From Escherichia coli (GTDB taxonomy: Bacteria > Pseudomonadota > Gammaproteobacteria > Enterobacterales > Enterobacteriaceae): a DNA stretch of 64,000 bases. This document shows, piece after piece, positions 33,701 to 36,700 of this stretch. Made by a program: the position numbers. The stretch's first letter is position 1. Each line of letters opens with the position of its first letter. The stretch lies in assembly GCF_013315695.1 (NCBI RefSeq), contig NZ_CP054353.1. The stretch is one strand, 5' to 3'.

Positions 33701-36700
33701 TTTGACATAATATTATCTCCTTCTACACAACAATTCGTTCCGTTAAGGAAAAAGATTGGTGTCACAAGTATTTATTTATGATTAATCAGAGGGTTTATGA
33801 CAGAGAAAAGGATGTATATTTCTGAGTAAACATGTACAGGCCTATGGGGTGACTATTTAATGAGTAAATGCCGAATGATTTTCGGGGTGATGATTATAAC
33901 TTGAGGAAAAATACCAGCGTGGTTTGAGTAGTGTACCTGAGTGATATTTGTGTTATGTATGCATTGATTGCAGCAGAATAAATATAGTTCAGGCTAGTAT
34001 AGTTTGTGGTAGCTATGAGAATATATAATCTATTTTACCTATAAAATAATTTATATGTATGGGGTTGTTTTTTTAGGTTGTTTGTCTGTGCTTTTATATT
34101 CTGGAGATGTGCCTTGTATATAGGATTGTTTGTTGGTTGTATTTTTTAATGTTGCACTGTTGTGAATTTTTATTTTGATATGATTATTTCTTTAGTATAA
34201 GGAGAGAAAGGAACGAGAAAGTTAAATCTATTTATCCTAATCGCAATTTCATTGTTTAAATAATCACTATGGATTAATATTTTTTGCGACTCTGCTGAGT
34301 TACTGGTTTTAACTAGTGGTGTAAAAGGGATACCTTTTCGGTATCCCTTTTACAATAATCAGAAGAAATCAATTCGCGTATTGATACCGACGGTGCGACC
34401 CATATTGACCTGCGCGACGGCGCTGCTGCCGTTCATGTAGCCATAGGTACGGTAACGACGGTCGAACAGGTTATCGACATAGACGGAAATGTTCATCCGT
34501 TCAGTCGCCTGCCAGCCCAGGCTGCTGTCCAGGGTGGCATAGGTGCCTTGCCGCAACTGGTTGTCGCCATCGAAATAATGCGGCCCGACCAGATTAAGCG
34601 CCAGTCGGGGCATCAGTGCGCCATAGCGCGTATCAATCACGCCGTTCACGCTGCTTCCCGCGCCATAACGTGGTACGAACGGCACCCGGTTACCGTGATA
34701 CAACTCACTGTCATTGGTGAATTCGGAACGGATCACGTTGCCATTGATATCCCATGACCAGCCTGGCGCAAACCGCCACTTCGCTTCAAGCTCAACGCCG
34801 GTGGCGTCGGCTTTACCCGCATTGCTTAATGTCTGCATCCCGACCGGGCCAGAGTAAAGCTGCATGTCTTTGGTGTGGGTATAAAACGTCGCGGCTTGCA
34901 GCGTGACGTCAGCGGTTTCGTAGCGGGTGCCAAGTTCATAGTTGATGGATTTCTCGGCGACGAACGGTTTGGCATCAAGACCCGCAGTAGGCACGATGTT
35001 GTACCCGGAAGGTTTATATCCCTGGGCTACACGGGTATACACTCTCCAGTCATCGGTCAGCATATAGCCTGCGGATAGCTGCCCGAGCACCTGATCGTCA
35101 TTGCTCTTACCCTGGTCGCCAAACGGGTTGCCGAGCATGCTGCCGTGATATTGTGTACTGGATTTATCATGCGAGAAGCGCACGCCGCCGCCGATATCAA
35201 AACGATCGGTTAAATGCCAGGTCAGGTCACTGTATGCGGCCAGCGTTTCAGCGGTGGTATAGCCGGTACTGCTTAAATAAGGCATTGTCGGCATGTCGTA
35301 GGCTGAATTTAACTTCTCGCGGGTGTTCTGCCGGTACAGCCCAAACACCATATCAACGGTACGCGCATCGCCCAGGGTTGCAGCGCGCAGCTCCTGCACA
35401 TCCTGATTCCAGCGCTGAGGCATATTGACGATTAACGAACCGGAAGGGAAGGTGCGCGAATAATGCTGCTGCTGCCAGGCGCTGATCAGGTTGAAAACCC
35501 AGTCATCGGTGGTGTATTTCCCACTCAGGGTCTGGCTGTCAGTGCAGCGCCGCATGTACGGGTCTGGTGAACCATCGCTGATCGACAGCTTACGGCCCTT
35601 AATATCATTCCATCCCACATAGGCGTCCTGGGTGGCGCGGGTACATTCGCGTGAGGCGGCAAAGCCCATTTCCCAGGGCTGATCGTCCGGCGCCAGACGC
35701 AGTTTCACATTCCCTATGCTGGCGCGGGTGCCGCCTAAGTCATCGCTTCCCGTCGCGGGGTTAATCATGTCGCCGTCATCAACCTGGCGTAACAGGGTGA
35801 CGCTGCCGTACAGCAGGCCATCCTGAATGGGGCCGCTCAGGTTGAACTTACTTCGATAACTGTCGCGGCTACTGACGCCGCCTTCAATATAGCCGCGCGG
35901 CGTGCTGTCCGGCTGCTGGGTGACGATGTTGATGATCCCGCCCTGAGCGCTTTTGCCATATAACGTTCCCTGTGGGCCTCGCAGCAACTCCACGCTTTGC
36001 ACATCGGTAAGCGCCTGGATGGTGTTGGTGGAAAGCTGAGGGACGCCATCGACATACAGGGTGACGGCGGGGTTATAGAAGTCCTGCGCTGAAGAGACGC
36101 CGCGTAGCGAGATCGTCGAAAAAAGCATGTTGCCGCTATTTTCAATATTGAGCCCGGGCAAGACTCTGGGGAGTTTGTCGCTGGCGGTGACGCCGGCGTC
36201 GCTTAATTCCGGCGCGCTGACAACAGTAGACGAGACGTTGTTGGCTGATGCCGAGCGGGAAGATTGTTTACTGGCGGTAACCACCAGCGTGCTTTCGTCT
36301 TGCTGTGAAGTCTGGGCATTAGCAATGGCGGGGAGCAATAATCCCCCCAAGGCCAGAGGATAAAGCCGTGTCATTTTCATTGTTGTGAGTCCCTGTAAGA
36401 CGGCGAAACGCCAAAAAATACCGACAATGGTGAATTGAAAATGATAACTATTTCTAATGGTGGTGCTACCCGAAACGGGTTTATTTCAACCTGTTTCGGG
36501 TCGGTTTGCGCTTATTGGGCAGAATGGCGATAACGGTCGACGGCGAGAGCCGTCAGGCGTTTTTTGTCTATCTTGCCGACGGCGGTGAGCGGCCAGTGGT
36601 CCAGAAACTCGATTTGGTCAGGAATTTTCCACGCGCTGAGCCCCATACGGGTCAGTTGTTGACGCAACTGCTGATAGTCAGTTGGCACCTGCTGCGCGAT

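What the first reader, a model, noticed from the sequence alone, without database searches (positions are those of the whole stretch)
33766..34358. fyuA-proximal island border is AT-rich and lacks a tRNA-derived direct repeat
I could not find a copy of the tRNA-Asn 3' end (CCAGTCAGAGGAGCCA) anywhere in this 590-bp stretch. The island therefore appears to be fixed at this end and unable to excise by site-specific recombination.
Basis: seen in the sequence. Interest (0 to 1): 0.3.

Follow-up and report, generated by a model that had tools for sequence, protein, structure and literature searches.

The report
Known truncated end of E. coli HPI
The yersiniabactin island (HPI) in this E. coli window has lost its fyuA-side attachment repeat through the single ancestral deletion already described for nearly all HPI-positive E. 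coli, so the finding is correct but ordinary, and the real island edge lies about 410 bases to the left of the flagged stretch.

Summary
Bases 33766-34358 are 31% G+C and hold no copy of the tRNA-Asn attachment core: the best 17-mer has 7 mismatches, no better than shuffled sequence.

The stretch is not the island border. It is island DNA throughout: the spacer between fyuA and the next gene (orf308) of the ancestral conjugative form of the island, 98.6-99% identical to a Klebsiella ICEKp-type locus. The true island/chromosome junction is at 33354|33355, inside an annotated ORF (32959-33708, minus strand). That ORF fuses the first 118 codons of orf308 in frame to yeeJ from about codon 74.

The deletion removed:
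- the rest of the element: the xis/hef excisionase gene, the type IV secretion and mobilisation genes, the cargo and the right repeat;
- 588 bp of chromosome present in K-12.

The same junction occurs in 2069 of 5426 complete E. coli genomes. An undeleted ICE-type island, used as a positive control, shows a perfect tRNA-free 17-bp repeat at its far end.

Schubert et al. 2009 (PMC2606025) published this deletion and drew the same conclusion: the island is fixed and spreads by homologous recombination of its flanks. Verdict: already known, low interest.

The parts
34359..36380 (-). fyuA, the yersiniabactin/pesticin receptor; last gene of the ybt core
   Evidence: 673-aa ORF. Annotated fyuA in the near-identical genome MSB1_4I. 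The exact protein is named FyuA in the public collection.
34320..34354 (.). Perfect 15-bp-stem hairpin (5-nt loop) just after the fyuA stop; likely the fyuA terminator (inferred)
   Evidence: Inverted repeat I1. The simple terminator scan did not call it because it has no T-run. This is the only downstream sequence still matched in the Salmonella diarizonae locus (L008); the other four ybt loci fetched stop matching within 14 bp of the fyuA stop.
33709..34358 (.). AT-rich spacer between fyuA and orf308 of the ancestral ICE-type HPI.
   Evidence: 98.6-99.1% identical to K. pneumoniae ICEKp-type locus L010. Found only in HPI-positive E. coli, 2255 of 5426 genomes, even in distant mode. G+C of 33766-34358 is 31%. 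No Rfam match.
34062..34074 (.). Scar of a 209-bp internal deletion in the spacer, between imperfect direct repeats AAAAAAAC(A/C)ACCC
   Evidence: The L010 alignment jumps from 12318 to 12527 with a 13-bp overlap. Sequences shown. The one two-piece, ~220-bp-longer E. coli hit that was examined (AR_0014) is ICE-type with a full-length orf308, i.e. it matches in two pieces, as expected if it keeps the segment.
33355..33708 (-). 5' remnant (118 codons) of ICE gene orf308, a conserved 308-aa protein of unknown function that follows fyuA in intact elements
   Evidence: tblastn of L010 orf308 residues 1-119 matches window 33708-33352 at 97.5%. The full-length protein has a 99% identical relative named as Y. 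pestis (WP_071239280.1) and 344 relatives in the search, those named being from Enterobacterales. No Pfam or NCBIfam family.
33354..33355 (.). True right-hand island/chromosome junction (deletion endpoint); at most 1 bp of microhomology
   Evidence: The three-way comparison is: window ...GATACCCCCCTG|TTACGCAAACTC..., ICE ...CCCCCCTG|ATAGGC, K-12 ...GGCTGAG|TTACGCAAACTC. HPI-negative genomes match a junction-spanning query only up to 33355. ICE-type genomes match only from 33349.
32959..33354 (-). yeeJ fragment (from about codon 74), fused in frame to the orf308 remnant. Together they form the 249-aa chimeric ORF annotated 'inverse autotransporter beta domain-containing protein'.
   Evidence: BLASTP: residues 114-226 are 86% identical to K-12 YeeJ residues 69-184. 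IAT_beta Pfam hit at residues 168-226. Annotation.
24913..24988 (+). asnW tRNA-Asn. Its 17-bp core (24973-24989) is inverted relative to asnT, so it cannot serve as a direct repeat for excision.
   Evidence: ARAGORN, pattern search, synteny with K-12.
23089..23164 (-). asnU tRNA-Asn. Its core (23088-23104) is in direct orientation with the asnT copy at the int end, which makes it the nearest possible surrogate right-hand site, 10.3 kb beyond the junction.
   Evidence: Orientation of asnT taken from the MSB1_4I record.
20680..20755 (-). asnV tRNA-Asn. Its core (20679-20695) is also in direct orientation with asnT.
63256..64000 (-). 3' part of the HPI integrase gene (P4-type tyrosine recombinase). 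The frame is open to the window edge. The gene start, the left repeat and asnT lie just outside the window, at about 64518 and 64680-64755.
   Evidence: Translation without stops. Annotated as an intact 1263-bp gene followed by tRNA-Asn in MSB1_4I, which has 0 mismatches over the 1854-bp overlap.

Best explanation
The window carries the common E. coli form of the Yersinia high-pathogenicity island (HPI), inserted at asnT.

Its ancestor was an integrative conjugative element of the ICEEc1/ICEKp1 type. In that form, fyuA is followed by orf308, xis/hef, a VirB-type secretion system, mobilisation genes, cargo and a 17-bp right-hand repeat.

One illegitimate deletion, with at most 1 bp of microhomology, joined codon 118 of orf308 to about codon 74 of the chromosomal gene yeeJ. 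It removed the excisionase gene, the transfer module, the right attachment repeat and 588 bp of backbone present in K-12: the 369-bp asnT-yeeJ spacer and the first 219 bp of yeeJ.

What remains downstream of fyuA is 1004 bp of AT-rich island DNA (33355-34358). The flagged interval is the fyuA-orf308 spacer within it.

Shown here: the junction, what was lost, and how widely the junction is shared.

Inferred, from sequence and from the cited papers: with attR and the excisionase gone, the still-intact integrase has no partner site, so the island cannot excise site-specifically. It is inherited vertically or moves by homologous recombination of its flanks.
For: - Island DNA extends to 33349-33355: 98.6-99.1% identity to ICEKp-type locus L010 from fyuA through orf308 codon 118.
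- Homology to K-12 yeeJ starts at 33355/33354.
- The 588 bp of K-12 between asnT and that point are nowhere in the window.
- No xis, T4SS or mob sequence is in the window. No 17-bp core exists outside the tRNA genes. The ICE right-arm sequence is absent.
- Intact ICE-type islands in E. coli do show orf308, AlpA/Xis, the VirB system, MobC and cargo, followed by a perfect tRNA-free repeat next to cbl.
- The same junction is in 2069 of 5426 complete genomes. HPI-negative genomes match only the yeeJ half, at about 91% identity.
- The integrase and asnT are intact in the source genome.
- Published: a unique deletion of the fyuA border with loss of the repeat, also affecting the backbone, with the island fixed and spread by recombination of its flanks (PMC2606025). 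Hef is required for excision (PMC2704930).
Against: - No experiment was done here. Inability to excise is inferred from sequence plus literature.
- I could not fetch Yersinia HPI DNA itself. The link to Yersinia rests on one 99% identical protein named as Y. pestis and on the papers.
- Two tRNA-Asn genes in direct orientation with asnT (asnU, asnV) still offer the 17-bp core 10-13 kb beyond the junction. Composite excisions using such sites were seen in Enterobacter hormaechei (PMC2801613). 'Cannot excise' is therefore strictly shown only for the island on its own.
Confidence: 0.95

Rival explanations
1. The flagged interval is the real border, namely the chromosomal asnT-yeeJ spacer, and it carries an attachment repeat that has decayed beyond easy recognition.
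For: The interval lies between the last island gene and an ORF annotated as an inverse autotransporter, i.e. yeeJ-like. It is AT-rich, like many intergenic regions.
Against: The whole interval and 410 bp beyond it are 98.6-99% identical to island DNA of a Klebsiella ICE. It has no similarity to the K-12 asnT-yeeJ spacer. It is absent from every HPI-negative E. coli genome even in distant mode. The best core match has 7 of 17 mismatches, which is chance level.
Confidence: 0.01
2. The island is not truly fixed. The integrase could recombine the asnT core with the identical cores in asnU or asnV, which are in direct orientation 10.3 and 12.7 kb beyond the junction. That would excise a composite of about 41.6-44 kb: HPI plus yeeJ' through yeeO (and, for asnV, cbl and nac). 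RecA could produce the same deletion between the identical 76-bp tRNA genes.
For: The cores at 23088-23104 and 20679-20695 lie on the same strand as asnT. The integrase is intact. In E. hormaechei, circles of HPI-ICE plus a neighbouring module bounded by another asn tRNA were detected (PMC2801613).
Against: The excisionase gene present in the E. hormaechei and Yersinia elements is deleted here, and the integrase alone does not promote efficient excision. None of 5426 complete E. coli genomes shows a mtfA-asn-cbl or mtfA-asn-ldtA deletion junction. Such an event would also remove chromosomal genes.
Confidence: 0.04
3. The missing repeat is an independent, strain-specific truncation or an assembly artefact of this genome.
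For: The same genome has other lesions in the island (irp1 interrupted), so local decay or sequencing errors are conceivable.
Against: The junction-spanning 400 bp are present at 99% identity or more in about 2000 independently assembled complete genomes. The deletion was described from PCR sequencing of the ECOR collection.
Confidence: 0.005

Closest known systems
Common ('normal'-type) E. coli HPI at asnT, as in CFT073, NU14 and the ECOR strains (Schubert et al. 2009, PMC2606025)
   Same: It is inserted at asnT with int next to the tRNA. It has the ybt core from ybtS to fyuA, the unique deletion of the fyuA-side border with loss of the 17-bp repeat, and a deletion reaching into the adjacent backbone. 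The junction is identical in 2069 complete genomes.
   Different: Nothing of substance. This copy additionally has a broken irp1.
ICE-type HPI: ICEEc1 of E. coli ECOR31 and ICEKp1/ICEKp of Klebsiella pneumoniae
   Same: The ybt core and the first 1 kb after fyuA (spacer plus orf308 codons 1-118) are 98.6-99% identical.
   Different: The ICE-type island goes on with full-length orf308, AlpA-family Xis, a VirB T4SS, MobC and coupling protein, cargo and a perfect right-hand 17-bp repeat. All of that is missing here. The ICE-type island also keeps a 209-bp spacer segment that is deleted here. About 175-178 of 5426 E. coli genomes carry the ICE-type right part.
HPI of Yersinia pestis / Y. pseudotuberculosis
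   Same: Same ybt genes, and orf308 is 99% identical at the protein level to a sequence named as Y. pestis. Same tRNA-Asn target and 17-bp core (PMC2801613).
   Different: According to the review PMC2704930, the Yersinia island encodes Hef, which is needed for excision. That it is bounded by the repeat on both sides is from my own knowledge of the Yersinia HPI literature, not from a paper read here. The window's island has neither Hef nor the second repeat. Yersinia DNA itself was not obtained here.
Composite excising modules at the asn-tRNA hotspot of Enterobacter hormaechei (Paauw et al. 2010, PMC2801613)
   Same: Several asn tRNA genes carrying the same 17-bp core lie close to the HPI, and cbl and nac sit between two of them.
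   Different: There the ICE part of the island is present and circles were detected. Here the excisionase is gone, and no natural deletion between asn tRNAs is seen in 5426 genomes.

Membership tests
Common E. coli-type HPI (asnT-inserted, right border deleted) | ybt gene cluster in the order int-ybtS...irp2-irp1-ybtUTE-fyuA | tested here: met
   The ORF layout matches the annotation of the near-identical genome MSB1_4I: 1 mismatch in 21.3 kb and 0 in 1.85 kb.
Common E. coli-type HPI (asnT-inserted, right border deleted) | Insertion at asnT, downstream of mtfA, with int adjacent to the tRNA | tested here: met
   This lies outside the window but in the identical source record, which reads mtfA, tRNA-Asn, integrase, ybtS. 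The window's int frame is open to its edge.
Common E. coli-type HPI (asnT-inserted, right border deleted) | No 17-bp direct repeat on the fyuA side | tested here: met
   with the positive control.
Common E. coli-type HPI (asnT-inserted, right border deleted) | The deletion also removes adjacent E. coli backbone, and the junction is shared among HPI-positive strains | tested here: met
   588 bp of K-12 sequence (spacer plus 219 bp of yeeJ) are missing. The junction is shared by 2069 genomes.
ICE-type HPI (ICEEc1 / ICEKp1) | Excisionase, VirB-type T4SS and mobilisation genes downstream of fyuA | tested here: not met
   tblastn with Xis and blastn with the whole ICE module of MLI106K4 find nothing in the window beyond orf308 codon 118.
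ICE-type HPI (ICEEc1 / ICEKp1) | Perfect 17-bp repeats at both ends | tested here: not met
   Only the tRNA genes carry the core. The ICE right-arm sequence is absent.
Excisable tRNA-integrated genomic island (integrase + directionality factor + flanking repeats) | Intact tyrosine recombinase next to the tRNA | tested here: met
   Only 744 bp of the gene lie in the window.
Excisable tRNA-integrated genomic island (integrase + directionality factor + flanking repeats) | Island-encoded recombination directionality factor (Hef/Xis, AlpA family) | tested here: not met
   No AlpA-like sequence is in the window; the best tblastn E-value is 0.63. In intact elements the gene lies about 700 bp beyond the deletion point. 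The rest of the genome was not searched for AlpA proteins that might act in trans.
Excisable tRNA-integrated genomic island (integrase + directionality factor + flanking repeats) | Actual excision or circularisation | not testable with these tools
   This needs PCR or long-read evidence. Only indirect data exist: 0 of 5426 genomes show asnT-asnU or asnT-asnV deletion junctions.

The most novel reading that the evidence does not exclude
The integrase-proficient but excisionase-less island might still be mobilised as a composite segment of about 42-44 kb. That segment would run from the asnT core to the directly oriented cores in asnU or asnV, and it would need an AlpA-family excisionase supplied in trans, for example by a co-resident ICE-type HPI or a related island. 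This would give the 'fixed' E. coli HPI an occasional site-specific escape route besides homologous recombination.
Probability: 0.04. Interest if true: 0.4.

Novelty: already known. Interest (0 to 1): 0.08.

Why it matters
The deletion explains why the yersiniabactin island, a major fitness and virulence factor of extraintestinal E. coli, behaves as a chromosomal fixture that entered the species once and spread with its flanks. That story has been in print since 2009. What this check adds is bookkeeping: base-level coordinates of the junction (33354|33355), the recognition that the annotated 'inverse autotransporter beta domain' ORF is an orf308'-'yeeJ chimera, and counts from 5426 complete genomes (2069 deleted type, about 175 ICE type, 0 tRNA-to-tRNA deletions). 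This is useful for annotation but not surprising to a specialist.

Tried and rejected
- The genome-contig scan with FyuA returned only five loci (Klebsiella michiganensis, K. oxytoca, K. indica, Raoultella, Salmonella diarizonae). None was Yersinia, and in all of them similarity to the window stops 0-33 bp after the fyuA stop.
- Salmonella enterica loci carrying a FyuA protein from the same 90%-identity cluster (L011-L014) also diverge right at the fyuA stop.
- E. coli YC21-F17 (H30) has fyuA in a different context and was uninformative.
- The plasmid pJ53-KPC_Vir ybt locus is cut by Tn3 at the equivalent of window 34216, so it confirms only 143 bp downstream of the fyuA stop as island DNA.
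- I looked for Yersinia DNA through the orf308 protein cluster. The listed members were almost all Klebsiella, and the Y. pestis-named representative sits on a 1.6-kb contig, so I did not pursue it.
- The Rfam scan, the promoter/terminator scan (1 promoter-like site against 5.4 expected) and the repeat search found nothing functional in the interval except the hairpin after fyuA.
- I considered that the spacer might be hitch-hiking backbone from the first recipient rather than island DNA. I rejected this because it is 99% identical to a Klebsiella ICE.
- I considered natural tRNA-to-tRNA deletions as evidence of residual mobility. None was found.

Full report
**Context.** The window is the asn-tRNA region of an E. 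coli chromosome, in the reverse of K-12 orientation.
- From left to right it holds cobUST, ldtA, asnV (20680-20755, -), nac, cbl, asnU (23089-23164, -), yeeO, asnW (24913-24988, +), yeeN, amn, shiA, a GT9 glycosyltransferase gene, remnants of yeeJ, and then the yersiniabactin island from fyuA (34359-36380, -) to int (63256 to beyond the window edge).
- It is practically identical to strain MSB1_4I (NZ_LR898874.1): 1 mismatch in 21.3 kb and 0 in 1.85 kb.
- In that record the integrase gene is intact and is followed by asnT and mtfA. These lie about 0.5-0.8 kb beyond the right edge of the window.

**Checking the observation.**
It is 16 bases of the published 17-bp core CCAGTCAGAGGAGCCAA (PMC2801613, Table 1).
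- With up to 3 mismatches the 16-mer occurs only in the three tRNA genes.
- In 33766-34358, and in 33300-34400, the best 17-mer has 7 mismatches. Of 300 shuffles, 286 reach that or better.
- From asnW to fyuA nothing is closer than 6 mismatches.
- The interval is 31.0% G+C, against 58.9% in the ybt core and 49% in the chromosomal flank.
- As a positive control I took an E. coli genome with an undeleted, ICE-type island (MLI106K4). The same search finds a perfect core that is not part of a tRNA gene. It lies between the last cargo gene and cbl, exactly where attR should be (L017 17683-17699).

**What the interval is.** It is not the border.
- A K. pneumoniae ICEKp-type locus (L010) is 99.1% identical to the window from fyuA down to 34062 and 98.6% identical from 34074 down to 33349.
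- K-12 has nothing similar to 33356-34358. Its yeeJ aligns only from 33355 leftwards.
- The three-way comparison gives the join. The window reads ...GATACCCCCCTG|TTACGCAAACTC..., the ICE reads ...CCCCCCTG|ATAGGC..., and K-12 reads ...GGCTGAG|TTACGCAAACTC.... The junction is at 33354|33355 with at most one shared base, which points to illegitimate recombination.
- The DNA right of the junction holds the first 118 codons of the ICE gene that follows fyuA. This gene, which I call orf308, encodes a 308-aa protein of unknown function with no Pfam or NCBIfam family, a 99% identical relative named as Y. pestis and 344 relatives in the search, those named being from Enterobacterales.
- Those codons are fused in frame to yeeJ from about codon 74. 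The resulting 249-aa ORF (32959-33708) is what RefSeq calls an 'inverse autotransporter beta domain-containing protein'.
- The flagged interval is therefore the fyuA-orf308 spacer of the ancestral element. It is shortened by a 209-bp deletion between AAAAAAAC(A/C)ACCC repeats at about 34062-34074.

**What was lost.**
- On the island side, everything after orf308 codon 118 is gone. In intact elements that part comprises the AlpA-family excisionase (about 700 bp further on), DUF2857 and TraR-like genes, a VirB-type secretion system, the coupling protein, MobC, cargo and attR.
- None of this is in the window, nor is the conserved right-arm sequence next to attR.
- On the chromosome side, 588 bp present in K-12 are gone and are nowhere else in the window. 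They comprise the 369-bp asnT-yeeJ spacer and the first 219 bp of yeeJ.

**Distribution.**
- A 400-bp query centred on the junction is fully matched in 2069 of 5426 complete E. coli genomes, mostly at 99% identity or more.
- HPI-negative genomes match only the yeeJ half, up to 33355, at about 91% identity.
- ICE-type genomes match only the island half, from 33349.
- The island-side kilobase occurs in 2255 genomes and in no HPI-negative one, even with the sensitive search.
- The ICE-specific continuation occurs in 178 genomes.
- The much lower identity of the yeeJ flank in HPI-negative strains fits co-transfer of the island with its flanks.

**How it works.**
- The integrase and the left site (asnT) are intact. 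The right site and the excisionase are missing.
- A review reports, citing Lesic et al. 2004, that the HPI integrase alone does not promote efficient excision and needs Hef (PMC2704930).
- The island therefore cannot leave by site-specific recombination.
- Schubert et al. 2009 describe exactly this: a unique deletion of the fyuA-side border in all HPI-positive ECOR strains but ECOR31, loss of the direct repeat, and involvement of the neighbouring backbone. They conclude that the HPI is fixed and spread by conjugative transfer of large fragments followed by homologous recombination (PMC2606025).
- The junction and the losses are shown here. Immobility is inferred.

**Residual caveat.**
- asnU and asnV carry the same core in direct orientation with asnT, 10.3 and 12.7 kb beyond the junction.
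- In Enterobacter hormaechei, circles made of HPI-ICE plus a neighbouring module bounded by another asn tRNA were detected (PMC2801613).
- Here the excisionase is absent, and synthetic queries for the predicted mtfA-asn-cbl and mtfA-asn-ldtA deletion junctions find no such genome among 5426.
- I give this reading about 4%.

**Comparison and novelty.** The locus meets every defining feature of the common E. coli-type HPI. It fails those of the ICE-type HPI, having no excisionase or transfer module and no second repeat. The finding is already known. Only the base-level junction, the chimeric nature of the annotated ORF and the genome counts are added here. Interest is low.

**Dead ends.**
- The single genome-contig scan returned no Yersinia locus, and the loci it did return diverge at the fyuA stop.
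- Salmonella loci do the same.
- Rfam, promoter/terminator and repeat scans of the interval gave nothing except the hairpin after fyuA.

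Noticed in passing
window 43663-43673 and 44678-44680 (irp1, 39990-49354, minus strand): irp1 (the HMWP1 polyketide synthase gene) is broken. 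It has a 127-bp deletion between 11-bp direct repeats relative to an intact E. coli irp1, and an in-frame stop at 44678-44680 with no indel nearby. MSB1_4I annotates the gene as frameshifted with an internal stop. This strain probably cannot make yersiniabactin, although it keeps the receptor.
   Followed up: partly
window 34062-34074: A 209-bp segment of the fyuA-orf308 spacer, present in the Klebsiella ICEKp locus L010, is deleted between imperfect direct repeats AAAAAAAC(A/C)ACCC. The one two-piece, ~220-bp-longer E. coli hit examined (AR_0014) is ICE-type, which suggests ICE-type islands keep the segment. Most of the genomes with the common junction matched the spacer in one piece, so they appear to share the deletion.
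   Followed up: partly
window 30868-33354: The yeeJ adhesin gene is a wreck beyond its lost 5' end. K-12 positions jump from about nt 550 of the gene to about nt 4240 (a 3.7-kb internal deletion), and there are further breaks. It is annotated as a frameshifted, incomplete Ig-like-domain pseudogene.
   Followed up: partly
window 33155-33354: The yeeJ flank next to the island is 99% or more identical among HPI-positive genomes but only about 91% identical to HPI-negative ones (K-12, B, O157:H7). This fits the published idea that the island spread together with its flanks by homologous recombination.
   Followed up: partly
window 29625-30740: An apparently intact family-9 glycosyltransferase gene sits where K-12 has the yeeL pseudogene.
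   Followed up: no
L016 and L017 (E. coli MLI106K4, NZ_CP117053.1): An ICE-type HPI inserted at asnU carries anti-phage cargo at its far end: Kiwa (kwaAB), an ABC-three-component system with a DUF3732 protein, and a DprA-like gene. An IS421 copy sits in the transfer module.
   Followed up: no
L003 (E. coli YC21-F17, NZ_CM176886.2): The ybt genes lie in an unusual context. Similarity to the window ends at the fyuA stop, and the neighbours are another TonB-dependent receptor, iss and the iro salmochelin genes, so this is not the asnT/yeeJ setting.
   Followed up: no
L009 (plasmid pJ53-KPC_Vir, NZ_CP157326.2): A plasmid-borne ybt locus is cut off 143 bp after fyuA by a truncated Tn3-family transposase gene. 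It lies next to arginine/ornithine catabolism genes.
   Followed up: no
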